The translations under genes were made by a program, and so were the position numbers. From an uncultured Alphaproteobacteria bacterium (GTDB taxonomy: Bacteria > Pseudomonadota > Alphaproteobacteria > Rhizobiales > Rhodomicrobiaceae), in NCBI GenBank assembly GCA_963767435.1, contig CAVYEY010000029.1, positions 3,857-67,856 of the forward strand: a stretch of 64,000 nt of DNA, written 5' to 3'. Shown here one piece after another: positions 46,892-61,200 of this stretch (the stretch's first letter is position 1; the number at the start of each line of letters is the position of its first letter). The notes under the pieces are model-generated. The model searched no databases and was not told the origin of the DNA. It saw only the letters and a program-made list of their open reading frames with translations.

Positions 46892-46919
46892 AACGTCTTC
46901 TCAACACGCACGGACTAAA

Positions 46920-46968
46920 CCCTCTCCCCTTGCGGGAGAGGGTGGCCGCGAAGCGGCCGGGTGAGGGG
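46920..46968. repeat. REP/RIME-like palindromic element
   Basis: CCCTCTCCC-CTTGC-GGGAGAGGG...GGGTGAGGGG, the common alphaproteobacterial REP pattern. Confidence 0.75.
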
Positions 46969-47023
46969 TGATCACATACGCCGGTCATGGCACCGGAGCC
47001 GTCAGCACTTTCGACGTTTGCTA

Positions 47024-47305
47024 TCAGATGCCAAGCTCGCTGTGCGATCCGATGCGCACGAGTTGCAACACCTCGTCATCCGGCTTCCGGTAGATCAACA
47101 CAAGATCGGGCCTGATGTGACAATCCCGATGATCTTTCCAGCAGCCGGTCAGCGCATGGTCGCGACACCGGGGCTCCAGCGGCCGGTCGCTGACCAGCGC
47201 ATCCAAAACAGGCTTCAAGCCGGCATCGAGCGTTGCGCGATGCGGTCCCTTAGCCTCGCGCTTGTAGTCGCGTCTGAATTGGCCGGTTGGCTCAATCCTC
47301 CGCAT
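47024..47305 (-). CDS. yafQ: YafQ-family (RelE-like) mRNA interferase toxin
   Basis: FRRDYKR, RDHALTG.WKDHRDCHIRPDLVLIY and LVRIGSHSEL motifs. Confidence 0.92.
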   Translation of the reverse strand: MRRIEPTGQFRRDYKREAKGPHRATLDAGLKPVLDALVSDRPLEPRCRDHALTGCWKDHRDCHIRPDLVLIYRKPDDEVLQLVRIGSHSELGI

Positions 47306-47593: not shown

Positions 47594-47770
47594 GCGGGGG
47601 AGCCCATCAAGTCTGACGGGGTCTCAGCGTTGACCGGTCCAGACTTCAGAAGGCGGCTGAATTCTTGCCGCACCAAGGATAAACCACTGCAGCCATTTTT
47701 AGGCGGCGACTCGAAGTTTCGGCGCTCATCGTATGATTTTTGCTGAAAAAGTGCATACGTATACACTTTT

Positions 47771-47841
47771 CTAGTTTGCATCCACAAACAGCGGAGCGGG
47801 TAAAAAGCCAGGAAAAACCGCCGCTTGTGGATGCAAACTAG
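47771..47841. mobile_element. 71-bp CTAG-bounded miniature inverted-repeat element
   Basis: Perfect 17-bp terminal inverted repeats CTAGTTTGCATCCACAA / TTGTGGATGCAAACTAG. Confidence 0.65.
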
Positions 47842-48136
47842 CTAGCTGGACCAGCGCGTGTAATGCGATGCGGGGTGCGTCAGGCTGTGGCAGGGATAAT
47901 AAGGCGGAAGCGGCCAGCTATCCCGGCTCCGAGGTTTGAGCCTGGAAATGCCTGGGCCGGGGACCTCCAACGCAATTTTGACAATCGCGCAAGCCCTGCC
48001 GGGCGGCGGGGTGTATTGGTTCTATACGCCACGCGTATTCAATGTATAGCTATAATACACATATTATTAATAATAACCATCTGGAGATAAGTGAGACAAC
48101 CACGCTGTAGTAAAAGTCTCGCAACCACGTAAGTTA

Positions 48137-48157
48137 CTGTTATTGCCAGTATAACAG
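48137..48157. promoter_or_regulatory. Palindromic operator upstream of the mmoX promoter
   Basis: Perfect inverted repeat CTGTTAT-N7-ATAACAG about 40 bp upstream of the -24 element. Confidence 0.4.
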
Positions 48158-48194
48158 ACGCACGCGCCACTTTGGCGTTGTCTACCCCGGCAGT

Positions 48195-48210
48195 TGGCAT
48201 GAAACCTGCT
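48195..48210 (+). promoter_or_regulatory. sigma54 (-24/-12) promoter of the mmo operon
   Basis: TGGCAT-GAAAC-CTGCT has the exact GG/GC spacing, 110 bp before mmoX; characterised mmo operons are sigma54-dependent. Confidence 0.8.
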
Positions 48211-48319
48211 CTTTACATTCTACTAAGCGCCGTCCAGAGAAAATTAAGCGCACGCAGGACTCGAGCGCACCCCCGTGGCGGCATAGGCGTGAATACCGCA
48301 AATGTAGGAGGAAATTCTT

Positions 48320-49894
48320 ATGCCCTTGAGTTCCGCAACCAAAGCGGCAACTGACGCCCACAAAGCGAACCGGGCGCCAACCAGCGTGAGTCCCCAGGAG
48401 GTTCACCGTTGGATGCAGAGCTTCAACTGGGACTTCGCTAACAACCGCACGAAATATCCCACCAAATACAAGATGGCGTTCGATACCAAGGAGCAGTTCA
48501 AGCTCATCGCCAAGGAATACGCTCGCATGGAAGCCGTGAAGGACGAACGCCAATTCGGTACGCTCCTTGACGGCATGACGCGTCTGGGCGCCGGCAACCG
48601 CATGCACCCCAGATGGGGCGAGACCATGAAGGTTGCGTCCAACTTCCTTGAAGTGGGTGAGTATAATGCCATCTCCGGTTCGGCCATGCTGTGGGATTCA
48701 GCGACCGCCGCCGAACAGAAGAACGGCTATCTCGCCCAGGTGCTGGACGAAATCCGCCACACCCATCAGTGCGGTTTCGTGAACTACTACTACTCCAAGC
48801 ACTATCACGACCCCGCCGGCCATAACGACGCGCGCCGCACGCGTACCATAGGCCCAATGTGGAAGGGCATGAAGCGCGTGTTCGCTGACGGCTTTATCTC
48901 AGGCGACGCGGTGGAATGCTCGATCAATCTGCAGCTCGTGGGTGAAGCGTGCTTCACCAATCCGCTGATCGTAGCCATTACCGAATGGGCTTCGGCCAAC
49001 GGCGACGAAATCACGCCTACGGTGTTCCTCTCTATCGAAACCGACGAACTGCGCCACATGGCAAACGGTTATCAGACCATTGTGTCGATCGCCAATGACC
49101 CGGCGTCGCAGAAGTACCTGAATTCCGACCTTAACAACGCCTTCTGGACGCAGCAGAAATACTTCACGCCGGTGCTTGGCTGGGCATTCGAATACGGCTC
49201 GAAGTTCAAGGTCGAACCGTGGGTCAAGACCTGGAACCGTTGGGTGTACGAGGACTGGGGCGGTATCTGGATCGGCCGTCTGTCCAAGTACGGCGTGAAG
49301 TCGCCGCCGTCCTTGCGCGACGCCAAGAAAGACGCCTACTGGGCGCATCACGACTTGGCACTGCTGGCCTACGCGTTCTGGCCGCTAGGCTTCTTCCGGG
49401 TGTCACTGCCGGACGAGGAAGACATGGCCTGGTTCGAAGCCAACTATCCGGGTTGGGATGCCCATTACGGCAAGATCTACCGCGAATGGAAGAAACTCGG
49501 CTGCGAAGATCCGAAGAGTGGCTTCGTCCCGCTGACTTGGCTTGCCCAGAATGGCCACAAAGTCTACGTCGACCGCGTGTCGCAAGTCCCGTTCTGCCCG
49601 TCGCTCGCCAAAGGCGCCAGCACGCTGCGCATCCACGAGTTCAACGGCAAGAAGCATTCGTTCAGCGACGATTGGGGCGAGCGCATGTGGCTCACTGAGC
49701 CGGAACGCTACGAGTGCCAGAACGTGTTCGAGCAGTATTCGGGCCGCGAGCTTTCGGAAATCGTCGTTGAAGGTCATGGCGTCCGGGCGGACGGCAAGAC
49801 AATGATCGCACAACCGCATGTCCGCGGCGAAAATCTGTGGACGGTCGCCGATCTGAAGCAGGCGGGGATCGTGTGCGGTGACCCGCTGGCCTAG
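48320..49894 (+). CDS. mmoX: Soluble methane monooxygenase hydroxylase alpha subunit
   Basis: Colinear with methanotroph MmoX: SNFLEVGEYNA (L110/E114), DEIRHTHQC (E144/H147/C151), RVFADGF (F188), GEACFTN (E209/T213/N214), TDELRH (E243/H246); AGGAGG RBS. Confidence 0.98.
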   Translation: MPLSSATKAATDAHKANRAPTSVSPQEVHRWMQSFNWDFANNRTKYPTKYKMAFDTKEQFKLIAKEYARMEAVKDERQFGTLLDGMTRLGAGNRMHPRWGETMKVASNFLEVGEYNAISGSAMLWDSATAAEQKNGYLAQVLDEIRHTHQCGFVNYYYSKHYHDPAGHNDARRTRTIGPMWKGMKRVFADGFISGDAVECSINLQLVGEACFTNPLIVAITEWASANGDEITPTVFLSIETDELRHMANGYQTIVSIANDPASQKYLNSDLNNAFWTQQKYFTPVLGWAFEYGSKFKVEPWVKTWNRWVYEDWGGIWIGRLSKYGVKSPPSLRDAKKDAYWAHHDLALLAYAFWPLGFFRVSLPDEEDMAWFEANYPGWDAHYGKIYREWKKLGCEDPKSGFVPLTWLAQNGHKVYVDRVSQVPFCPSLAKGASTLRIHEFNGKKHSFSDDWGERMWLTEPERYECQNVFEQYSGRELSEIVVEGHGVRADGKTMIAQPHVRGENLWTVADLKQAGIVCGDPLA

Positions 49895-49909
49895 CCGGCC
49901 ACGGCAGGA

Positions 49910-49936
49910 GGAGCGCCTTGCGGCATAGGGCGCTCC
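49910..49936 (+). other. mmoX-mmoY intergenic stem-loop
   Basis: GGAGCGCC...GGCGCTCC stem immediately after the mmoX stop codon. Confidence 0.45.
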
Positions 49937-50106
49937 GTCACCCCTCGCCGTAGCGGGCGGCCAAGCTGAGCTGGGCGAAGGGGCTTCTTATAACAAATGG
50001 CGGCGGAGCTTCCGCTTAGCCCAACGGTAGCAGGCGCCACAAGGGACGTCAGCCGCGTCTCCGGCGAGCACTAAAGCAGAAGAAACATTTGAGGAGGAGT
50101 TACGCC

Positions 50107-51279
50107 ATGGCCACAACCCAGGCCACCAGACGCGGTCTGACCGACCCAGAACGCGCGGCCGCAATCATTGCCGATATCCCCGAGCCTATCGATACACAGC
50201 GCAGGATGAACTACTTCGTGACGCCGCGCGGCAAGCGGCTCAGCGAATATGAAATCCTGTCTCTCTACACCCAGCCCAATCCGGACTGGATCTCGGGCGG
50301 CCTCGACTGGGGCGACTGGACTCAGAAGTTCCATGGCGGCCGTCCCTCGTGGGGCAATGAGTCCACCGAGTTGCGCACCACCGACTGGTACCGCCACCGC
50401 GACCCCTACCGCCGCTGGCACGCTCCCTATGTAAAGGACAAGGCCGAGGAGTGGCGCTACACCGAACGCTTCATTAATGCCTATTCCACCGAAGGCGCCG
50501 TCCGCTCGATAAACACGTTCTGGCGCGACGAAATGATCAACAAGTACTGGGGCGCCTTCCTGTTCAACGAGTATGGGCTGTTCAACGCTCATTCCTCGGT
50601 GATGCGCGACTGCCTGTCGGACGTAATCCGTCAGACCGCCGGTTGTGCCGGGTTCGACAAGATCGACATCGCTCAGATGATCCAGCTTGAACGCAACCTG
50701 CTGTCCAAACTCTCGCCGGGCTTCCCGGAGTCGACCGATGCGCCTAAAAATGTCTGGCTCACCGATCCGGTTTACAAAAACGCCCGCGCCACCGTGGAAG
50801 AGGTGTGGCAGGGCATCCAGGACTGGAACGAAATCCTCTGGGGTGTGCATGCCGTCTATGACTCCATCTTCGGGCAATTCGTCCGCCGGGAGTTCTTCGG
50901 CCGCATGTCCGCCCATTACGGCGACAACCTGACGCCGTTCTTCCTTGCCCAGTCGCAGACCTACTTCCAGATCAACCGCGCCGGTATTCAGGACCTGTAT
51001 CTGCATTGCTTGGCCAACGATCCTGAATTCGCCGATCACAACCGGCGGTGGCTCAGGGCCTGGACATCCAAGTGGCTGGCCAAGACGGTGGAAGCGCTGC
51101 GGGACTTCGTTGCCATCTACGCCAAGGTCGACAAGGTTCCCGGCCTCAGCGATCCGGCGTCCATCGCGGCAACCGTCCGGCGCGTGCTCGCCGACTGGGC
51201 CGAGGACTACGCCAACGCTATCGACTTCAAATTCGATATCGACAAGACCACAGCCGGGATCGTCAGCGGATTAAAATGA
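50107..51279 (+). CDS. mmoY: sMMO hydroxylase beta subunit
   Basis: RRGLTDPERAA, DWGDWTQKFHGGRPSWGNESTELRTTDWYRHRDP and GDNLTPFF motifs. Confidence 0.97.
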   Translation: MATTQATRRGLTDPERAAAIIADIPEPIDTQRRMNYFVTPRGKRLSEYEILSLYTQPNPDWISGGLDWGDWTQKFHGGRPSWGNESTELRTTDWYRHRDPYRRWHAPYVKDKAEEWRYTERFINAYSTEGAVRSINTFWRDEMINKYWGAFLFNEYGLFNAHSSVMRDCLSDVIRQTAGCAGFDKIDIAQMIQLERNLLSKLSPGFPESTDAPKNVWLTDPVYKNARATVEEVWQGIQDWNEILWGVHAVYDSIFGQFVRREFFGRMSAHYGDNLTPFFLAQSQTYFQINRAGIQDLYLHCLANDPEFADHNRRWLRAWTSKWLAKTVEALRDFVAIYAKVDKVPGLSDPASIAATVRRVLADWAEDYANAIDFKFDIDKTTAGIVSGLK

Positions 51280-51291
51280 GGAGCCAATACC

Positions 51292-51708
51292 ATGCCAGCA
51301 GGTAAAAACGCCTACAACGCAGGTATCATGCAGAAGAATGGCGCTGCCTTCGCAGCCGAATTCTTTGACGAGAAGAACCAAGTCGTCCACGAGTCCAACA
51401 CGGTGGTGCTGGTACTCATGAAGAGTGACGAAATCGACGCCATTGTCGAGGAGATCATTCTTGGGCCAGGAAAGAAGGAGAATCCCTCGATCACCGTAGA
51501 GGATCGTACCGGCTTTTGGTGGATCAAGGCGGATGGGAAGATCCAGGTCGATACCGAAGCCGCTGCCGACATGCTCGGCAAGAACTATTCAGTCTACGAC
51601 TTCCTTGTGAATGTGTCCTCGACAATCGGGCGCGCCTATACGCTCGGCAACACCTTCACGATCACGTCGGAGCTGATGGGGCTCGACCGTAAACTAGCCG
51701 ACGTCTGA
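51292..51708 (+). CDS. mmoB: sMMO regulatory protein B
   Basis: NAYNAGIM, NQVVHESNTVVLVLMKSDEID and VSSTIGRAYTLGNTFTITSELMGLDR motifs. Confidence 0.97.
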   Translation: MPAGKNAYNAGIMQKNGAAFAAEFFDEKNQVVHESNTVVLVLMKSDEIDAIVEEIILGPGKKENPSITVEDRTGFWWIKADGKIQVDTEAAADMLGKNYSVYDFLVNVSSTIGRAYTLGNTFTITSELMGLDRKLADV

Positions 51709-51720
51709 CGAATACCGGCG

Positions 51721-51766
51721 CCGCTTCCGTCATGGCCGGGTCATCGCCGTGCCATGACGGAAGCGG
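51721..51766. repeat. 16-bp perfect inverted repeat between mmoB and mmoZ
   Basis: CCGCTTCCGTCATGGC / GCCATGACGGAAGCGG; the GTCATGGCCGGG core resembles rhizobial REPs. Confidence 0.6.
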
Positions 51767-51807
51767 GCGGATGCCCAAGAGAGCACAAAAATAGTGAGGT
51801 AACCCCA

Positions 51808-52326
51808 ATGGCTAAATGCAACATCCATGACAATCCCCTGCGGGATGAGTGGCTGGCGAAGATCGGCGCCCTCGACAGCGTGGAGACGGCAACCGCCTTC
51901 ATTCAAGACTTCCGCAAGAACCACACGTCGCCGTTCCGGACGTCCTACGGCCTGGAACTCGATTATCTGTTTATCGAGGCCAAAATCGAGGAACGCCTGT
52001 CGGTCCTGAAGGCCAACAAGTTGAACGACGCCGGCCTTCTGAACCAAACCACGACTGGCGAGGACGCCGCCGCGGTTGCGGACATCTGGAAACGGCGCAT
52101 GGACGCCGAGACCAGCAAGTTCGGGGCGGAGAAAATACTCATCCAGTTCCGCCAGCTTTACAAACCTCCAGTGATGCCGGTGAACCACTTCCTGAAGGTG
52201 GACAGCTATCTGGGCTCGCGCCTCATGGAACTGCGCAACACCAACTACTACGAAACGCCCCTGGCGGAGCTGCGCAAACAACGCGGCGTGAAAGTGCTGT
52301 ATCTCGCGAACGGCGCGACACCGTAA
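51808..52326 (+). CDS. mmoZ: sMMO hydroxylase gamma subunit
   Basis: [42 protein letters not shown] and [10 protein letters not shown] motifs. Confidence 0.96.
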
Positions 52327-52438
52327 ACGGGCTGTAGCGGCGCAGAAGGGCGGGCGCGGTGTTTTAGGAGACCGGCCCCGCCGTTCGAAATTTCGCGGCC
52401 TGTCCGCGGTGCGCGAGGACAAACGCAAGGAGGAAGCC

Positions 52439-52711
52439 ATGTACACGCGGGACATACTGGCCGGGAACGAAACGCCGTCAGGCGTTGAGATGCCATTCAC
52501 CGATGCGGCCGTTCTCGAACGGCACGGCATTGAGGGCGATGGCCCTTACAGCGCGGTCATCGAGGATCTCGGCTTCATGTGGCGCTGGAGCCTATTTCGC
52601 GGACGCGAGATGTGCCAGCATGGCTGTTCGCTGAGCGAGCGTGCCTCGCGCGAGGCCGTCGGCCACGTGCTTGCCTTCTACGGAATCCGCGATAGCGACG
52701 GGAAAACTTGA
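52439..52711 (+). CDS. mmoD: sMMO MmoD (OrfY)
   Basis: DLGFMWRW...GCSLSERASREAVGHVL core; AGGAGG RBS; located after mmoZ. Confidence 0.9.
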   Translation: MYTRDILAGNETPSGVEMPFTDAAVLERHGIEGDGPYSAVIEDLGFMWRWSLFRGREMCQHGCSLSERASREAVGHVLAFYGIRDSDGKT

Positions 52712-52946
52712 CGGCCAGTCCCGGCAAGTCTTGGTGACCCTCCATCGTTGCAAGGGGCATGGCGCCGAAGCAATCCAGAAGCGGTAAACGCGACGCCAAT
52801 TTCTGGATCGCCACCGCCATCAAGGCGGCCTCGCGGCACCGGGACGATAACGCAATTGTACCAAATGGCCACCGCCCCCGCAGCCGCGGCCACGTCATGG
52901 CCGGGGAACGGGAGAGCTGTGCCCGGAAAACAGGGAGAGTAACGCC

Positions 52947-53489
52947 ATGAATTCACTACTCGCATTGTCAATCAGCATTGCTACGCTCGGAGGCGTATGG
53001 ACCTTCCTGGCGCTTGGTCCCCTGCACGGGTTCGTCCTGGTTTGGGCCGGATTTCTCGCTTGGGGAGCGTTCTTCCATAGCATCGGCGGCAAAAAGCCGC
53101 TCACGAAAACGGCCGCCGGGATGGCCTACGGCGCCTTCATCGCGTGGGTTTGTCTGCTGATCTTCACATCGGCGCCCATGCCCGCCCTCGGCGCGCTCTA
53201 TCCGGCTATCCTTGTCTCGGCAACGGTGTTCCTGCTCGTGATCGTCGCGGGGATCGAGCCCTTGTCGCCGGTGCCCGCCAACGTCTACGGCTACGCCGCA
53301 CTGGTTGCCTATAGCCTGCACCAGCCCGCTACGGCGCCCGGTACAGGCCCGCTGGAAAACCTGCTCACGCCGTCCTTCGCCAATCCGCTGGTGCTGATCG
53401 CCGTATCGGCGGCGGCTGGCGCGGTATTCGGCTGGTTCTCGTCCCAACTCGCGAAGGCCCTGGGCAAAGCCGTCCCGGCCTCGGCCTAA
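52947..53489 (+). CDS. DUF1097-like inner-membrane protein
   Basis: About five TM helices with VWAGFLAWGAFFHSIG and PANVYGYAA motifs. Confidence 0.65.
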   Translation: MNSLLALSISIATLGGVWTFLALGPLHGFVLVWAGFLAWGAFFHSIGGKKPLTKTAAGMAYGAFIAWVCLLIFTSAPMPALGALYPAILVSATVFLLVIVAGIEPLSPVPANVYGYAALVAYSLHQPATAPGTGPLENLLTPSFANPLVLIAVSAAAGAVFGWFSSQLAKALGKAVPASA

Positions 53490-53525
53490 GTCCGTAAACG
53501 CCAAGATCGCATAGGGGAAAACGGC

Positions 53526-54578
53526 ATGTATAAGATCACAGCATACACCGAGGATGGACATATCATCGAATTCGCGGGTTCGCCCAGCGAGGATATCGTC
53601 ACGAGCGCGCTGAAGCAGGACGTCATTCTCCTGACGTCTTGCCGCGAAGGCGGTTGCGCCACATGCAAGGCGGAATGTTCGGACGGCGATTACGAGCTGG
53701 CGAATGCCAGCGTGCAGGCGCTGCCGCCGGACGAAGAGGAGGAAGGTTTCGTCCTCCTGTGCTGCACCTATCCGCGCAGCAATCTTACGCTCAATCTCCC
53801 TTATACGTTCGATCGGGTTTCGTTTGAGAAGACCAACCAGGAATGGACCGGCGATATCGCCGTGGCGGAGCGTGTGTCGTCCAACGTCATGCGTCTGGTG
53901 ATCCGCCCGGGCGATCCCGAGACAGGCGAGCCGGTGAAGCTCAAGTTCACGCCAGGCCAATATATCGACATCGAGGTGCCCGGTACGGATGTCTGGCGCT
54001 CCTATTCCCTGGCCACCACAAGCGATAGCGGCGACCTGGAGTTCCTGATCCGCCTGCTGCCGGATGGGTTCTTCTCGAAGTTCCTGCTGACCGGGGCTGC
54101 TCCCGGCGTGCGGGTGAGGCTGCATGGCCCCTTGGGCGCGTTCGCCATGCGCGAGAATGGATTCCGGCCCCGTTACTTCATCGCGGGCGGCACCGGGCTA
54201 TCGCCAGTATTGTCGATGATCCGCCACATGCAGATCGAGGAGCATCCGCAGCAGGCGAAGTTGTTTTTCGGCGTCACTCACGAACACGAGCTGTTTTTCG
54301 CCGATACGTTGCGTGAGATCGAAAGCGCAATGTCGAATTTAGAAGTTCACATATCTGTTATAAATCCAGAGTTGTCTTCGCCATATCCGGCAGGCACAGT
54401 AGTTGACGAACTGAAGAAGGACTTCGAGCTGGGCGGAGCAAGTCCGGACATTTATGTCTGTGGCCCACCCGCGATGATCGACGCGACACTTGCCGCCGCA
54501 AGAAAGTATGGCATGCCGGCCGATCAGATATTCTACGAGAGGTTCCTGGCTTCAGGCCGGGCACAAGCAGCGGAATGA
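53526..54578 (+). CDS. mmoC: sMMO reductase
   Basis: SCREGGCATCK...LLCC 2Fe-2S domain, ALPPDEEE, RSYS, GFRPRYFIAGGTGLSP and YVCGPP motifs. Confidence 0.96.
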   Translation: MYKITAYTEDGHIIEFAGSPSEDIVTSALKQDVILLTSCREGGCATCKAECSDGDYELANASVQALPPDEEEEGFVLLCCTYPRSNLTLNLPYTFDRVSFEKTNQEWTGDIAVAERVSSNVMRLVIRPGDPETGEPVKLKFTPGQYIDIEVPGTDVWRSYSLATTSDSGDLEFLIRLLPDGFFSKFLLTGAAPGVRVRLHGPLGAFAMRENGFRPRYFIAGGTGLSPVLSMIRHMQIEEHPQQAKLFFGVTHEHELFFADTLREIESAMSNLEVHISVINPELSSPYPAGTVVDELKKDFELGGASPDIYVCGPPAMIDATLAAARKYGMPADQIFYERFLASGRAQAAE

Positions 54579-54654
54579 CTAGTACGCCCCGCGGGAAATC
54601 CTCACCCCTATGCGGCTGGCTCCGGCAGGATTTCCCGCGGATAAGGCGTACTAG
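54579..54654. mobile_element. CTAGTAC-ended miniature inverted-repeat element 1
   Basis: CTAGTACGCC-CCGCGGGAAATCCT ... AGGATTTCCCGCGG-ATAA-GGCGTACTAG, starting directly after the mmoC stop codon. Confidence 0.65.
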
Positions 54655-54667
54655 CAGACTCTTGTAT

Positions 54668-54744
54668 CTAGTACAGCTTATCCGCCGGAAGCTCGCTCGG
54701 CGGATAGCGGCAAGCGGGTGCGAACTTCCGGCGGGCTGTACTTG
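54668..54744. mobile_element. CTAGTAC-ended miniature inverted-repeat element 2 (related, opposite orientation)
   Basis: CTAGTACAGC-TTATC-CGCCGGAAG ... CTTCCGGCG-GGCTGTACTTG; its left end resembles the reverse complement of element 1's right end. Confidence 0.55.
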
Positions 54745-54770
54745 GCTGGCCAAGCAGAGGCGAGGCAATC

Positions 54771-55118
54771 GTGAGCGATGACGGCCCAGAGGAGTTCTGC
54801 GATCCGGCCTTCATCGCCGCGATGGCCAGGGAGCTTGACGCATCGGCGCGCAAACTGGAAGCGCGCGAAAAGGAACTGGTGGCACTGCTGGGCGCGGATC
54901 GCGTGGCCGAACTGGCCGGACTTTGGGCCAAGGAGATGGAGCCGCTCGATGAGGCCGAGCTGAAGCGCAATATGGACTGGTCCGACAAGGAACTCATCTG
55001 GGTCTGGTCGCGCCTGGAGCGCGCGCGGGCGCGGCGGGTACTCGCAGGCCGGCAGGCAATGCTGCACATTCAATATGGTCCCGAAACACGGCAGAGCGAA
55101 GAGGATACGGAGATGTAG
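54771..55118 (+). CDS. Hypothetical protein preceding mmoG
   Basis: GAGG RBS and host-like codons; small ORFs precede mmoG in several characterised mmo clusters. Confidence 0.65.
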   Translation: MSDDGPEEFCDPAFIAAMARELDASARKLEAREKELVALLGADRVAELAGLWAKEMEPLDEAELKRNMDWSDKELIWVWSRLERARARRVLAGRQAMLHIQYGPETRQSEEDTEM

Positions 55119-55180
55119 CAGCCGGCAAGCCAGCGCCCATCATAACAAGAATTAGAGCGCTAAAAGGGTAGGAGAACACC

Positions 55181-56863
55181 ATGGCCAAGGCATTTCATTT
55201 TGGCGGCGCGGGGCGCCTGCGCATGCTGGCGGGCGCGAACCTGCTGGCGGATGCGGTGCAAATCACACTCGGCCCGCACGGGCGCAACGTGCTTATAGAG
55301 CATCGCACGGGCGGCTTGGCACCGGTCCTGACCCGCGACGGCATCACGGTGGCGCGGTCCATCGAGGATGGCGACGCCGCGCGAAACGCAGGAGTCGCGA
55401 TGCTGCGCGAGGCGGCGCGCAATGTGTCGCGACTGGCTGGCGATGGCACTTCCACGACCATCGTGCTTGCCCGGTGCATCGCGGCCGGGGCGGTGAAGGC
55501 AATGGCGGCCGGAATGGATCCGAAGGGCTTGCGCGAGGGCATCGGCATGGCCACGGACGCCGTTATCGCCGATCTCGAACGGCGCGCCCGCAAATGCGCT
55601 TCAGGGCCCGCTCTCGTTGCCCTTGGTACCATTGCCGCGAACGGCGAAGACTGTATCGGCACAATGCTTGCGGAGGCATTCGAACGGGTGGGGGCCGATG
55701 GCATCGTCGCGTTGGAGCTAGGCGAAGGCCGCGAGGACAAATTGGAGTTTGTCGAAGGCGCCGCCTGGGACCAAGGCTATCCATCCCGCTATTTCGTCAC
55801 CAATAGGGATCTCGAAACGGCCGAACTGGACAATCCGTTCGTGCTGCTCACCGACCGCATTATCACCCGGTTCGACGAACTGATCCCAGCGCTCGACCTC
55901 GTGCGCGAGGAAAACGGCAGCCTCCTGATCGTGGCCGAAAATATCGAAGAGAAGGTTTTGCCGCCGCTGTTGCTCAACCACATTCGCGCCGTCGTCCGCG
56001 CGGTCCCGGTGAAACCGCCAGGATATGGCGAGACGCGTGCGCACGCGCTTGCCGATCTCGCGGTGCTGACCGGCGGACGCGCGTTCCTGGAATCGTGCGG
56101 CGACAGCCTGGAGCAGGTGCGTCTTGCCGATCTCGGAAGAGCGAGGCGCGCGGTGGTGACGGAAAACTCTATATCGCTCATGGGCGGTGGCGGCGCGCCC
56201 GGCGCCATCGCTGAGCGTACCGCCTCCATCGAGCAGCAGATCGGCTGGATTCGCAACGGCGATGCAAGCAAAGGCTCGGCCATCGGCAAATCCCATGATC
56301 AGGAGCAACTTGACGAGCGTTTGCGCCGTCTGAGCGGAGTTGCCGCGGTCATTCGCGTGGGCGGCGGCACGGATGTGGAGATCAAGGAACGCCTGCAACG
56401 GTTTGAGAATGCAAAGAACTCCATGCGCGGGGCGCTGCGCGAGGGCGTGCTGCCCGGCGGCGGCACGGCTCTGCTGCGCGCCCGCGAGGCATTGCGCGAT
56501 CTTCCGCGCGAACCGCTCGATGTGCGCTGCGGCATCGATATCGTCGCGCGGGCGATCGCCGAGCCTGCCCGGCTGATCGGCGCTAACATGGGCGAGGACC
56601 CCGCGCAGGTGCTGACGCGCATACTCGCCGGCGCCAACCCGTTCTTCGGCCTTGACGCAAGGCATGGGCGGTTTGGCGATCTGTATGAGCTGGGTGTGCT
56701 CGATCCGCTGATCGTGACGCGGCTCGCCTTGCAGGAGGCGGCAAGCACGGCTTCAATGCTGATGACGGCCGAATGCGTCATCACGCAGATACCGCCGGAA
56801 GACCCGCTCTATGGCTATACGCCTGAGTGGGCCGCCGCCACACGCGAAGACCCGCGCGTATAG
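55181..56863 (+). CDS. mmoG: sMMO-specific GroEL-like chaperonin MmoG
   Basis: Divergent GroEL (TLGPHGRNV, TRDGITVA, AGDGTST, PGGG) with no GGM tail and no groES, next to the mmo genes. Confidence 0.9.
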   Translation: MAKAFHFGGAGRLRMLAGANLLADAVQITLGPHGRNVLIEHRTGGLAPVLTRDGITVARSIEDGDAARNAGVAMLREAARNVSRLAGDGTSTTIVLARCIAAGAVKAMAAGMDPKGLREGIGMATDAVIADLERRARKCASGPALVALGTIAANGEDCIGTMLAEAFERVGADGIVALELGEGREDKLEFVEGAAWDQGYPSRYFVTNRDLETAELDNPFVLLTDRIITRFDELIPALDLVREENGSLLIVAENIEEKVLPPLLLNHIRAVVRAVPVKPPGYGETRAHALADLAVLTGGRAFLESCGDSLEQVRLADLGRARRAVVTENSISLMGGGGAPGAIAERTASIEQQIGWIRNGDASKGSAIGKSHDQEQLDERLRRLSGVAAVIRVGGGTDVEIKERLQRFENAKNSMRGALREGVLPGGGTALLRAREALRDLPREPLDVRCGIDIVARAIAEPARLIGANMGEDPAQVLTRILAGANPFFGLDARHGRFGDLYELGVLDPLIVTRLALQEAASTASMLMTAECVITQIPPEDPLYGYTPEWAAATREDPRV

Positions 56864-57173
56864 CCGGGTCCGGCAGTTATACCGGCGAGCCAAAGTTTTG
56901 ACTCTCCGGCCGCAGTTCCCGCCGGCACGCGGCGTTGATGGCCGCGAGCACGCCTTCGTGGATGAAGGCGTGCCGTTCATGCCGCTGCCGCCTTTGCCGC
57001 ATCGAAGGGGGCACCGCCGGCTGGCATACGGGGCATGGCCGCAACGCCAAGCCGGCTGCCCCTACACCACGGACGCGACCACGCTGCGCCGGTCTTGAGC
57101 TGGCTTGCGGCGCCAATGTCAAGGCAAGTACCTTGCGCCGCAAACCAGACTTCATGCCGAGGCCGGCGGGTGG

Positions 57174-57456
57174 TCAGAACTTCACGGTCACGCCGGCGTA
57201 GACCGAGCGGCCCATGCCGGCAAGGGGCTCGAACGATGCCGCGCCCATCCAGTTGGACATCATGCCCGCAAAGCCCGCAGCGGAGTTGCCGAGATAAGCG
57301 CCGCCGAGGGGCGAGTAGTATTGCTGGTTGAGCAGGTTCTCGACGCCGAGGTCGAAGCGGACGTTGCCCCATTGATAGCTGCTACGCAGGTTCATCAGCG
57401 CATAGCCCGGCGTTGTCAACTCGTTGCGGATTGTCTCGACATCGGTCTTGGCGCCA
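57174..57456 (-). pseudogene. C-terminal fragment of a TonB-dependent receptor
   Basis: AKTDVETIRNELTTPGYALMNLR...GVENLLNQQY...GRSVYAGVTVKF; the upstream gene body is replaced by repeat copy B. Confidence 0.85.
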
Positions 57457-57462
57457 CATCTA

Positions 57463-57742
57463 TTAAGAAAATGTGGTTAACGCGGAATCGCGGATGCTCA
57501 AAAATGGCAGAAATTGCTCGAATTTTAGCTCAAACTGCTGGTATTCGAGCATTGAAAACTACGGTTAAATATTGTGTCTTTACCATAATCATGACACCCA
57601 ATGGATATTTTTACGTGCAAAATCAATGCGTTACCAAAATCTCCCTTTTAACCCTTCAGTAAAGCACATCGATTACAATTAGTTCAAAGTCGAAAAACCC
57701 CCTTCGATTACCAAAATGGGCACTTTTGCGGGCCGGGAATTC
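57463..57742 (+). repeat. ~280-bp AT-rich dispersed repeat, copy B, with an IHF consensus site
   Basis: Aligns with 16660-16928; AATCAATGCGTTA at 57621-57633. Confidence 0.9.
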
Positions 57743-57902
57743 CAGTATGGCGTCAGTACGCAGCTTGCAGCAGTCTTCCAGATACGGTACCTGCCTGCCC
57801 CGCGAATCGCGGCACTTCTGCGCACCGCCAGGCCAGAGCATTTGCAGATCCTCGCCGTTCATTTTATGCTACTTAAATGAGCTCAAGCGCAGCGCCACCC
57901 CA

Positions 57903-59165: not shown

Positions 59166-59322
59166 CGGATTGCAAAGCTTCGTGGATGTATGTTCCGCGG
59201 CGGCAAGTTCGTATGAGAAGTCACTTGACTTGCGGTGCGCCGTTTCTATCCTCATCGATAGTGAGCGTTGGTCTGGCGACAGTCCGGCGCATACATTCGT
59301 TCAACAGCTATAGGAGAGTCAC

Positions 59323-59859
59323 ATACGCCGTCCGGTTAAGGGCGCGCCCGCCAAGGAAGGTGGAGCACGCATCAACGACGCCATTATCGCCCGCGACGTC
59401 CAGCTCATCGATGAGAGCGGCGAAAACCATGGCACTGTCAATAAGCGCGAGGCGCTGTCGAGAGCCCAGGAAGCAGGTCTCGATCTTGTTGAAATTGCAG
59501 CCAACGGAGAAATACCGGTCTGCAAGATCATGGATTTCGGGAAGCATAAGTTCCAGCTTCAAAAGAAGGCTGCGGAAGCCCGGAAAAAGCAGAAGACCGT
59601 CGAGGTCAAGGAAATTAAGCTTCGCCCTAATATCGACACGCATGACTATCAAGTTAAGATGCGTTCGATGGTAAAGTTTTTTGAAGAGGGCGACAAGGTC
59701 AAGGTGACGCTACGTTTCCGCGGCCGCGAAATGGCCCATCAAGAACTCGGCATGCAACTCCTTGTTAAAGTCAAGGAAGAAACGGGCACGATTGCCAAGG
59801 TTGAATTGGAACCAAAGCTCGAAGGCCGTCAGATGATTATGGTTCTTGCTCCCCGCTAA
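59323..59859 (+). CDS. infC: Translation initiation factor IF-3 with a non-canonical ATA start
   Basis: AGGAGAG RBS, then ATA CGC CGT CCG...; in frame RINDAI..RDVQLID...GLDLVEI...[13 protein letters not shown]...FRGRE. Confidence 0.93.
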
Positions 59860-60085
59860 TTGCCTGAGAAGGGGAGCGTTAATAGTTGTGTTGCTTAATG
59901 AGCAGTCAAGGTGTTGACTGCCTCAAAGCATAAATGTCCCTTCTACTTCCGAAAGCCTGAAATTCAACAATGGCTTAAGGGTGTTTTGAGCCTTGCGCGA
60001 AGTATATGCCCCATGTACTATTGCAGTGGGGTTAGGGCGCGCGACACCTCCAAAAAAACTGAGCGCCAAACCGAACCATACCAAA

Positions 60086-60691
60086 ATGACGATTAAGATA
60101 ACTGGAAAAAACGTCGATCTTGGCGAGAGTTTGCGTAGTTATGCGCTAAATCGTATAGAATCATCTCTGGGTAAATTCTGGGATAGCCCGGTATCGGGCC
60201 AGATCAGCCTGGAGAAAAACAGCGACGGCTTCTCGACCCAGTGCGCGATACACTTGGCCTCCGGGCTCGATATGCAATCGGCAGGCACCGGTTCCGACGC
60301 CTATGGCAGCGTCGACTCCGCGATGGAGCGGCTCGAAAAGCGGTTGCGCCGTTATAAGCGCAGGCTTAAAAACCATGGCCAGAGCGCCGTTAACCCCGGG
60401 GTAATTTTGGACAGCGCCGGGATCGATTATGTGATAGACGTAGAGCGTACGGCCGAATCTCCCGCCGGCGAGGGAGACGGGGTTGGAGCTCCGGCTGTCA
60501 TCGCGGAAAAACCGGCACGTATAAGGGCTATGGCGGTGAGCGACGCGGTCATGCAGATGGACCTTGCCGATCAGCCTTTTCTGGTGTTCCGTAATGCCGC
60601 GCACGGCGGGGTCAACGTCGTGTACCGGCGTCCAGACGGAAACATCGGGTGGATCGACCCAAGCGGCGGCGCAGCAAACGCCAAGGCATAA
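60086..60691 (+). CDS. hpf: Ribosome hibernation promoting factor (long HPF/RaiA)
   Basis: ITGKNVDLGESLR, RLEKRLRRYKRRLK and NVVYRRPDGNIGWID motifs. Confidence 0.93.
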   Translation: MTIKITGKNVDLGESLRSYALNRIESSLGKFWDSPVSGQISLEKNSDGFSTQCAIHLASGLDMQSAGTGSDAYGSVDSAMERLEKRLRRYKRRLKNHGQSAVNPGVILDSAGIDYVIDVERTAESPAGEGDGVGAPAVIAEKPARIRAMAVSDAVMQMDLADQPFLVFRNAAHGGVNVVYRRPDGNIGWIDPSGGAANAKA

Positions 60692-60735
60692 GCTGTGCGG
60701 GCCGCAACAGAGGACGTTAGCGCGTGGGACAAGAT

Positions 60736-61200
60736 ATGGATTTGAGCGACCTCATAACGCCCTATGGCGTTATTCCGTCCCTTAAGGCTGCGAACAAAAA
60801 GCAAGTACTGCAAATCCTTTCGGACCGTGCTGCGGATCTGACTGGACTGAATAGCGTAGACATCTACAACATCCTGTTCCAGCGGGAGCGGCTGGGGTCC
60901 ACTGGCGTGGGCTCGGGCATCGCGATTCCGCACGGCAAGCTTCAGAATCTCCGGCACAGCGTTGGCGTATTCGCGCGCCTGGAGGAGCCCGTCGAATTCG
61001 ATTCCATCGACGAGGAACCCGTCGACGTCGTCATGCTGCTGCTGGCCCCCGAGAGCGCCGGCGCCGATCATTTGAAGGCTCTGGCGCGGGTGTCGCGCCT
61101 GCTTCGCGAGCCCAAGGCGGTAGAAAAGCTGCGTGCCTGCCGCGACCGCAACGCGATCTACGCAATCCTTACAGAAAAGGCCGCGTCTCACGCGGCCTAG
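60736..61200 (+). CDS. ptsN: PTS IIA-like nitrogen-regulatory protein
   Basis: RERLGSTGVGSGIAIPHGK and AGADHLKALARVSR motifs. Confidence 0.95.
   Translation: MDLSDLITPYGVIPSLKAANKKQVLQILSDRAADLTGLNSVDIYNILFQRERLGSTGVGSGIAIPHGKLQNLRHSVGVFARLEEPVEFDSIDEEPVDVVMLLLAPESAGADHLKALARVSRLLREPKAVEKLRACRDRNAIYAILTEKAASHAA

What the first reader, a model, noticed from the sequence alone, without database searches (positions are those of the whole stretch)
47770..57742. Complete methane-type sMMO cluster as an island in a host with anaerobic, non-methanotroph-type metabolism
Seen: mmoX, Y, B, Z, D, C and G are all intact, with a sigma54 promoter, all six diiron ligands and the L110/C151/F188/T213/N214 pocket residues. 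The cluster is bounded by a TA pair, mini-elements, a broken TonB gene and a dispersed repeat. Known: mmoZ plus mmoD with this MmoX sequence points to group 3 soluble diiron monooxygenases of methanotrophs; I recall uncultured peat Hyphomicrobiaceae related to Rhodomicrobium being reported with MMO genes, but know of no characterised isolate. Inference: this is a horizontally acquired methane oxidation module in a Rhodomicrobium-like facultative anaerobe, i.e. a candidate new type of facultative methanotroph.
Basis: partly seen in the sequence, partly recalled or inferred. Interest (0 to 1): 0.9.

Follow-up and report, generated by a model that had tools for sequence, protein, structure and literature searches.

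The report
Methane-oxidation operon with a borrowed activator

Summary
The sMMO genes are real and intact: mmoXYBZD-DUF1097-mmoC-orf2-mmoG, with all iron ligands and a sigma-54 motif. The host is a Rhodomicrobium. The lineage is not new: it matches HYP1 (Singleton 2018) and the MMO-bearing Rhodomicrobium MAGs of a 2026 preprint (R. methylothiovorans). The host is also not 'non-methanotroph-type': its genome carries pmoCAB, two XoxF, glutathione-linked formaldehyde genes, form II RuBisCO, dsr genes and haem-copper oxidases, and no reaction-centre genes were found. The site is a local insertion, but synonymous divergence equals that of host genes, so acquisition is old. The cluster is not complete: mmoR, present between mmoC and orf2 in all four sMMO-bearing relatives, is replaced by a 170-bp host repeat. 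An intact mmoR of a different paralogous lineage survives on another contig beside xoxF, behind a sigma-54 motif and a 30-codon mmoX stub, the scar of a second deleted operon. Best reading: the clade's ancestor had two sMMO operons; this genome kept the enzyme of one and the activator of the other, which likely acts in trans. No expression data exist, rpoN is missing from this 79% assembly, and RuBisCO reads E48K, probably a sequencing error.

The parts
46915..46972 (.). short palindromic repeat after sudAB, left edge
   Evidence: 7 sites in the genome at >=70% length
47024..47305 (-). YafQ/RelE-family toxin of a type II toxin-antitoxin pair
   Evidence: PF15738, TIGR02385
47292..47555 (-). 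RelB/DinJ antitoxin
   Evidence: TIGR02384, PF04221
47770..47845 (.). CTAG-flanked hairpin element, single copy in this assembly
   Evidence: fold and blastn
48012..48028 (.). candidate activator site 1 (TGTA-N9-TACA, one mismatch); binding by MmoR is inferred
48043..48059 (.). candidate activator site 2 (perfect TGTA-N9-TACA); binding by MmoR is inferred
   Evidence: one of 12 perfect sites in the 4.1 Mb genome; tandem pair kept in G015, G019, G027
48195..48210 (+). sigma-54 -24/-12 motif (GG-N10-GC)
   Evidence: conserved in G002, G015, G019, G027
48320..49894 (+). mmoX, hydroxylase alpha, 524 aa, all six diiron ligands
50110..51279 (+). mmoY, hydroxylase beta
   Evidence: NF045802 713 bits, cut-off 700
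51292..51708 (+). mmoB, regulatory component
   Evidence: NF045804 248.9, cut-off 245
51808..52326 (+). mmoZ, hydroxylase gamma
   Evidence: NF045805 257, cut-off 230; PF02964
52409..52711 (+). mmoD (an ATG behind a ribosome-binding site lies at 52439)
   Evidence: TIGR04550 80.4, cut-off 80; sequence
52947..53489 (+). DUF1097 membrane protein inserted between mmoD and mmoC
   Evidence: PF06496; same position only in G015 among the 4 relatives
53526..54578 (+). mmoC, FAD/2Fe-2S reductase
   Evidence: NF045803 501.4, cut-off 500; motifs
54579..54748 (.). two CTAG-flanked palindromic host repeats sitting exactly where mmoR (about 2.4 kb) lies in relatives
   Evidence: 30 sites genome-wide at >=70% length; homology to G015/G019/G027 stops at the mmoC stop and resumes just before orf2
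54771..55118 (+). orf2, conserved small protein upstream of mmoG
   Evidence: 52% to the Methylocella silvestris locus L009; no Pfam or NCBIfam hit
55181..56863 (+). mmoG, GroEL-like chaperonin
   Evidence: 87-89% to G015/G019/G027, about 41% to the host's own GroEL copies
57174..57470 (-). C-terminal fragment of a probable TonB-dependent receptor
   Evidence: weak: PF00593 E 0.008, PDB 5nec E 0.56
57472..57790 (.). dispersed repeat at the right breakpoint, before the GT4-infC-hpf-ptsN block
   Evidence: 32 sites; five relatives have an alpha/beta-hydrolase-like gene here instead

Best explanation
The cluster is an intact soluble methane monooxygenase operon that has lost its own activator gene mmoR and is likely switched on in trans by an intact, paralogous MmoR encoded on another contig, in a Rhodomicrobium predicted to be a microaerophilic methane and sulfur oxidiser. 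Shown in sequence: enzyme genes, sigma-54 motif, tandem palindromes, a repeat in place of mmoR, and on C22 a sigma-54 motif, a 30-codon mmoX stub and a 718-aa mmoR beside the xoxF-gfa-frmAB cluster. Inferred history: the clade's ancestor held two diverged sMMO operons (A and B). G015, G019 and G027 kept A, G002 kept B, G006 lost both, and this genome kept the enzyme genes of A and the activator of B; the A operon moved to the sudAB-GT4 site. Inferred working: MmoR(B), helped by MmoG from operon A, binds TGTA-N9-TACA sites and opens the sigma-54 promoter, probably at low copper since pmoCAB is also present. Methanol would go by XoxF to formaldehyde, by the glutathione route to formate and CO2, and carbon would be fixed by form II RuBisCO rather than the serine cycle.
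For: mmoR lies between mmoC and orf2 in 4 of 4 sMMO-bearing relatives and not in the window; the only full-length MmoR-like protein in the genome is on C22. It has intact Walker A, GSFTGA, Walker B, sensor and HTH motifs, and its recognition helix differs little from A-type MmoR. It groups with G002 (100/99; 81% identity against 68-69% to A types), while the enzyme genes group with G015/G019/G027 (100/100) and a G000+G002 clade is rejected (AU p 0.0009). Hosts G002 and G015 are sisters (100/99) yet carry B and A. dS of A genes to A relatives is 0.41-0.65 and of mmoR(B) to G002 0.86, within the host range 0.40-1.07; A versus B is 0.9-1.7. The orphan mmoR shows dN/dS 0.15 and a branch no longer than G002's while the mmoX stub beside it has decayed. 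The palindrome is enriched before mmoX: perfect in 13 of 77 loci against 0.7 expected. Downstream genes. No fae in 39 of 39 genomes, no FTHFS and no serine-glyoxylate-type class V aminotransferase in G000. mmoR and mmoG mutants lose mmo transcription (PMC7994243, passage).
Against: No expression or activity data; HYP1-group transcripts were minimal in Stordalen (PMC6155033, passage). rpoN is not in this assembly, although 5 of 5 relatives have it and its flanks are missing too. The assembly is 79% complete, so an A-type mmoR could be unassembled. Pairwise dN/dS cannot see a recent loss of function. The sole carboxylating RuBisCO reads K at the conserved Glu48 here and in G015, prk is split by a frameshift, and the one formate-dehydrogenase-like hit is below cut-off. 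The palindrome is absent before mmoX in Methylocella (L009), whose MmoR helix is similar, and the 77 loci are not independent. Binding of MmoR to it is untested.
Confidence: 0.6

Rival explanations
1. The operon is silent and starting to decay. Losing mmoR was recent, the B-type MmoR does not drive the A promoter, and the cell oxidises methane with pMMO only or lives on sulfur, hydrogen or CO.
For: No cognate mmoR; no rpoN in the assembly; minimal 'novel smo' transcripts in Stordalen (PMC6155033); G006 in the same clade, 98% complete, has no mmoX, pmoA or mmoR, so loss happens here.
Against: All nine genes are open, MmoX branch is short (0.012), promoter motif and both palindromes are kept, and the orphan mmoR has outlived the rest of its operon by enough time for the mmoX stub to decay.
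Confidence: 0.2
2. The split is an assembly effect: the A-type mmoR was collapsed out between two repeats or lies in the missing fifth of the genome, or contig C22 belongs to another population.
For: A 30-site repeat sits at the junction; completeness 79%; several frameshifts point to an error-prone assembly; no public contig bridged the junction.
Against: Contamination 0.95%; the xoxF block on C22 is collinear with five relatives at 79-84% nucleotide identity, like other host genes; homology breaks at the mmoC stop and resumes at the orf2 ribosome site with no mmoR letters left on either side.
Confidence: 0.12
3. One reading: a recently acquired foreign methane module in an otherwise anaerobic, non-methanotrophic host, marking a new type of methanotroph.
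For: The cluster has different neighbours in each relative; it replaces a hydrolase-containing stretch between sudAB and GT4 seen in G006 and G015; only 5 of 39 genus genomes have this MmoX; TA pair and repeats at the edges.
Against: Composition is host-like; dS equals that of host genes; pMMO, XoxF, GSH route, RuBisCO and oxidases are present; the lineage is published.
Confidence: 0.05
4. The enzyme mainly serves another substrate (short alkanes) or detoxification, and the cell does not grow on methane.
For: sMMO is broad in substrate range (own knowledge); no isolate of this clade was found in searches; the carbon-fixation genes show defects as assembled.
Against: Equivalog-level hits for five methane monooxygenase components, tree position among methanotroph MmoX, and co-occurrence with pMMO in 4 of 5 carriers and XoxF in 5 of 5.
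Confidence: 0.03

Closest known systems
HYP1 / 'novel smo' and 'novel pmo' Hyphomicrobiaceae of Stordalen Mire (Singleton et al. 2018, PMC6155033; passages and a supplement search read)
   Same: Rhodomicrobium relative with sMMO and pMMO, xoxF next to gfa/frmA/frmB, form II plus form IV RuBisCO, oxidative dsrAB, nifH, cox genes.
   Different: The paper does not mention mmoR or mmoG (0 occurrences in text, 0 for mmoR in supplements). This genome's operon lacks mmoR and carries DUF1097.
MMO-bearing Rhodomicrobium MAGs, incl. Rhodomicrobium methylothiovorans (bioRxiv 10.64898/2026.02.02.703227; passages read, supplements not seen)
   Same: 15 MAGs in 6 species with HYP-like PmoA and MmoX, XoxF, GSH route, CBB cycle, reverse Dsr, clustered in the genome tree: the same gene set and clustering found here.
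   Different: The main text has no occurrence of mmoR and does not describe two paralogous sMMO operons or a split one; the unseen supplements may.
Methylocella silvestris / Methyloferula stellata sMMO operon mmoXYBZDC-mmoR-orf2-mmoG (PMC5874634, passages)
   Same: Same gene order, sigma-54 promoter, orf2 and mmoG; MmoX 88% identical to L009; long N-terminal MmoR.
   Different: mmoR is inside their operon; they have no pMMO; different host family.
Methylovirgula thiovorans HY1 (PMC9371685, passages)
   Same: Cultured proof that one cell can oxidise methane with sMMO and sulfur with rDsr, and holds a CBB cycle.
   Different: Beijerinckiaceae; form I RuBisCO, serine cycle and H4MPT route; this genome has form II RuBisCO, the GSH route and no fae.

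Membership tests
soluble methane monooxygenase (group 3 SDIMO) | alpha, beta and gamma hydroxylase subunits (mmoX, Y, Z) | tested here: met
soluble methane monooxygenase (group 3 SDIMO) | MmoB, FAD/2Fe-2S reductase MmoC and MmoD in order XYBZDC | tested here: met
   equivalog cut-offs passed; DUF1097 inserted between D and C
soluble methane monooxygenase (group 3 SDIMO) | diiron ligands E114, E144, H147, E209, E243, H246 and pocket residues L110, C151, F188, T213, N214 | tested here: met
soluble methane monooxygenase (group 3 SDIMO) | MmoX clusters with methanotroph MmoX | tested here: met
   (37 rows picked from 79 loci)
soluble methane monooxygenase (group 3 SDIMO) | methane oxidation activity | not testable with these tools
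   no culture, no RNA run listed
Methylocella-type sMMO operon | mmoR inside the operon between mmoC and orf2 | tested here: not met
   a paralogous mmoR lies on C22
Methylocella-type sMMO operon | sigma-54 motif before mmoX, orf2 and mmoG at the 3' end | tested here: met
Methylocella-type sMMO operon | rpoN in the genome | tested here: inconclusive
   not found in the 79% assembly, flanks also absent; present in 5 of 5 relatives
HYP1-clade putative methanotrophic Rhodomicrobium | host genes place it in Rhodomicrobium | tested here: met
   best named SecA hits are Rhodomicrobium sp. 91% and R. udaipurense 81%; tree
HYP1-clade putative methanotrophic Rhodomicrobium | pmoCAB, XoxF beside gfa/frmA/frmB, dsrAB with dsrEFH, nifH | tested here: met
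   XoxF clade number not tested by a tree
HYP1-clade putative methanotrophic Rhodomicrobium | working CBB cycle with form II RuBisCO | tested here: inconclusive
   cbbM, fbp, prk, tkt, rpe present; cbbM reads E48K and prk is frameshifted as assembled
HYP1-clade putative methanotrophic Rhodomicrobium | direct identity to the published HYP1 MmoX/PmoA sequences | not tested
   membership rests on host placement, gene set and clade pattern
recent horizontally acquired genomic island | composition or divergence unlike the host | tested here: not met
recent horizontally acquired genomic island | empty site in relatives | tested here: inconclusive
   G006 and G015 suggest sudAB-hydrolase-GT4 adjacency, but across contig ends

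The most novel reading that the evidence does not exclude
A natural two-part sMMO regulon built by reciprocal deletion: enzyme and chaperone from one ancient operon, activator from another, joined in trans through a conserved tandem TGTA-N9-TACA site that is the MmoR enhancer of many sMMO operons, in an uncultured methane- and sulfur-oxidising Rhodomicrobium that fixes all its carbon with form II RuBisCO.
Probability: 0.45. Interest if true: 0.5.

Novelty: new member of a known kind. Interest (0 to 1): 0.35.

Why it matters
The headline, methane monooxygenases in Rhodomicrobium, is published, so the genome adds a member, not a kind. It matters in two smaller ways. It shows that the clade once held two diverged sMMO operons and sorted them differently, which explains why MmoX and host trees disagree without repeated transfer and warns that an operon without mmoR need not be dead. 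And it offers a concrete, testable candidate for the MmoR binding site (tandem TGTA-N9-TACA about 150-190 bp before the sigma-54 motif), which two searches of the open literature did not find described (the key papers on MmoR binding are outside that library). Whether these organisms oxidise methane at all is still unproven; no isolate was found in searches.

Tried and rejected
Sequencing runs: 3 DNA runs of one study were listed, no RNA holder listed. Their contigs gave only short, shallow pieces; exact-match pieces lay inside the cluster and on both sides, but none bridged an edge or the mmoC-orf2 junction (386 pieces not shown), and no close piece covered RuBisCO codon 48 among those shown. 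These runs are no evidence either way. Photosynthesis: no reaction-centre genes in G000 or the other four carriers, present in 19 of 39 genus genomes; kin are not independent. Sigma-70 promoter and terminator scans of the region were at chance level. A GANAG asymmetry of 39:3 against G006 turned out to be one repeat family aligned many times and was dropped. The first GANTC tally over mixed relatives was not decisive. The Atlas look-up of DUF1097 gave no result. A paper search for RuBisCO Glu48 found nothing, so its catalytic role is recalled. Earlier scan notes on this genome or on this MmoX: none. Rejected: host among known methanotroph families; a second intact sMMO in the genome; serine cycle or H4MPT route (absence in a 79% assembly is not proof). 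No structure or complex prediction was run: MmoX aligns gap-free to solved structures.
Full report
Observation. The window holds nine open genes on the + strand from 48320 to 56863: mmoX, Y, B, Z, D, a DUF1097 gene, mmoC, orf2 and mmoG. MmoY, B, Z, D and C pass NCBIfam equivalog cut-offs for methane monooxygenase parts; MmoX has no NCBIfam hit but aligns without gaps to solved MMOH alpha chains. A sigma-54 motif lies at 48195-48210 and is conserved in relatives. The TA pair and repeats at the edges are real; the TonB fragment is only weakly supported.

Host. The window is contig C29 of a 4.1 Mb, 54-contig genome, 79% complete with 0.95% contamination. The best named SecA hits are Rhodomicrobium sp. 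(91%) and R. udaipurense (81%), and the R. udaipurense protein falls inside the 39-genome genus set. Of these 39, 5 carry this MmoX (93-100%), 4 carry pmoA, 19 carry reaction-centre genes, and none has both MMO and reaction centre. The five carriers form a starred clade with G006, which is 98% complete and has no MMO.

Metabolism. The genome is methanotroph-like. It has intact pmoCAB on C17, two XoxF-type dehydrogenases (lanthanide-type Asp motif, recalled), one of them with xoxG, xoxJ, frmA, frmB and gfa on C22, form II and form IV RuBisCO, an fbp-prk-tkt-rpe block, two dsr clusters (the C42 one with dsrEFH), nifH and three strong COX1-family loci. I found no fae (0 of 39 genomes), no FTHFS, and only cysteine desulfurases among three class V aminotransferases. 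A formate dehydrogenase was not confirmed (one hit below cut-off). The PFOR-SudAB neighbour occurs in 22 of 39 genus genomes and says little about lifestyle.

Prior art. This gene set is the one described for HYP1 in PMC6155033 (passages) and for 15 Rhodomicrobium MAGs of 6 species, including R. methylothiovorans, in bioRxiv 10.64898/2026.02.02.703227 (passages; its supplements and figures were not seen and may describe operon structure). PMC9371685 cites the same MAG (passages). Searches showed no isolate. HYP1-group transcripts were minimal in situ.

Island or not. The neighbours of the cluster differ among the four closest loci L001-L004. In five relatives a hydrolase-like gene precedes GT4, and G006 and G015 suggest an older order sudAB-hydrolase-GT4, read across contig ends. 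So the cluster was inserted here. But its GC is 61.2% and its tetranucleotide distance is less extreme than that of the PFOR block, and dS to G015, G019 and G027 (0.41-0.65) lies within that of secA, cbbM, xoxF and GT4 (0.40-1.07). The clade acquired it long ago; MmoX-MmoG concatenates place it sister to Methylocella plus Methyloceanibacter among 9 rows, while the MmoX-only tree leaves that fork open. No donor was tested.

The missing activator. All four sMMO-bearing relatives have mmoR between mmoC and orf2. Among 72 loci that hold mmoZ, C and G, 60 show an MmoR-like hit, 17 of them in that position; 12 show none, all of which end within about 4 kb of mmoG; 7 of 79 loci were set aside as incomplete. 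In the window, homology stops at the mmoC stop and resumes just before orf2, and the gap holds a 170-bp palindromic repeat with 30 sites in the genome. The only full-length MmoR-like gene is C22:96242-98398 (718 aa, motifs intact). Upstream of it lie a sigma-54 motif and the first 30 codons of an mmoX, the scar of a deleted operon. This MmoR is sister to that of G002 (100/99), whereas the window's enzyme genes group with G015, G019 and G027 and reject a G002 pairing. G002 and G015 are sister hosts with different operon types, and the two types are more diverged (dS 0.9-1.7) than the hosts. Two ancestral operons with differential loss is the simplest account; repeated transfer inside the clade is not excluded.

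How it likely works. mmoR, mmoG and rpoN are needed for mmo transcription in Methylosinus (PMC7994243 and PMC5874634, passages). The orphan MmoR has dN/dS 0.15, no longer branch than its orthologue, and a recognition helix close to A-type MmoR. The window promoter keeps two TGTA-N9-TACA palindromes, one perfect, as do G015, G019 and G027; only 12 perfect sites exist in the genome. The motif is perfect in 13 of 77 mmoX upstream regions against 0.7 in base shuffles, and doubled in 15 against 1.8; the loci are related and Methylocella lacks it. I infer activation in trans, with MmoG supplied by the operon. Copper switching is inferred from the presence of both enzymes.

Against. rpoN is absent from the assembly, together with its flanks, though 5 of 5 relatives have it. 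cbbM reads Lys at conserved Glu48 in G000 and G015, with Glu in the other 9 of 11 genomes; the catalytic role of Glu48 is recalled. In both genomes a G at that base would complete a GANTC site. Over 115 kb aligned to G006, G-to-A differences at GANTC ran 14 to 4 against G000, this site included, against 2440 to 2193 overall (Fisher p 0.035; the highest loss rate of 64 contexts). Methylation-linked G-to-A errors are reported for nanopore data (bioRxiv 10.64898/2026.01.14.699587, abstract). The platform of this assembly is not given; frameshifts in prk, one dsrA, one coxA and a PQQ dehydrogenase point to uncorrected long reads. An error is therefore likely but not shown. Public contigs were too shallow to test junctions or this codon.

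Verdict. A real, intact sMMO in a member of a published, uncultured clade of putative methane- and sulfur-oxidising Rhodomicrobium. The new detail is the split between enzyme operon and activator, with a candidate MmoR site. New member of a known kind; interest 0.35.

Noticed in passing
L102:6031-7413 (G000:C4:244030-245412) and L107: Form II RuBisCO reads Lys at conserved Glu48 in G000 and G015, with different Lys codons; both sit on what would be GANTC sites, so a methylation-linked sequencing error is likely. If real, it would be an unusual RuBisCO variant.
   Followed up: partly
L099:14243-17300 (G000:C22:96242-99300): Scar of a second sMMO operon: sigma-54 motif, 30-codon mmoX stub, intact mmoR, next to a TonB receptor and the xoxF-frmA-frmB-gfa cluster.
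   Followed up: yes
L003:200-11575 and L100: In L003 the pmoCAB block with its upstream copper-handling-like genes lies directly before mmoX; the same block is collinear (78-85% nt) on G000 contig C17, away from the sMMO genes. Both MMO systems may once have formed one supercluster.
   Followed up: partly
L178 and L179 (G000:C42 and C22): Two dsr clusters with apparently near-identical downstream genes; the C22 copy has a split dsrA and showed no dsrEFH ORFs in the listing.
   Followed up: no
L005, L006, L008, L010-L012, L020, L038, L039, L045, L054, L055, L059: Methane-type mmo clusters in records titled Skermanella, Acidiphilium, Nevskia, Rhodopila, Betaproteobacteria, Rhodocyclaceae, Glaciimonas, Methylotenera and Methylophilaceae; one Methylophilaceae contig has four mmoX copies, two in tandem. 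Titles may be wrong and bins mixed.
   Followed up: no
L006:15523-17697: The Acidiphilium-titled cluster also runs mmoC-orf2-mmoG with no mmoR hit within 10 kb upstream or 3.9 kb downstream.
   Followed up: no
L085, L086, L087 (G024, G009, G026): Distant diiron monooxygenase alpha subunits (23-24% to MmoX) in three other genus members.
   Followed up: no
window 59308-61200: infC-hpf-ptsN follow GT4 with no rpoN beside hpf; infC's listed ORF covers only model positions 60-168, so it probably has a non-standard start.
   Followed up: partly
window 52947-53489, L026, L029: DUF1097 genes occur near sMMO clusters in two Methylocystis loci too (32% identity), and a paralogue lies on G000 C19.
   Followed up: no
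genus-wide: Form II RuBisCO (11 of 39) and MMO fall in a mostly non-phototrophic branch of the genus; no genome with a reaction centre had this cbbM.
   Followed up: partly
L033, L060, L072: mmoC or mmoG appear interrupted in these Methylococcales loci.
   Followed up: no
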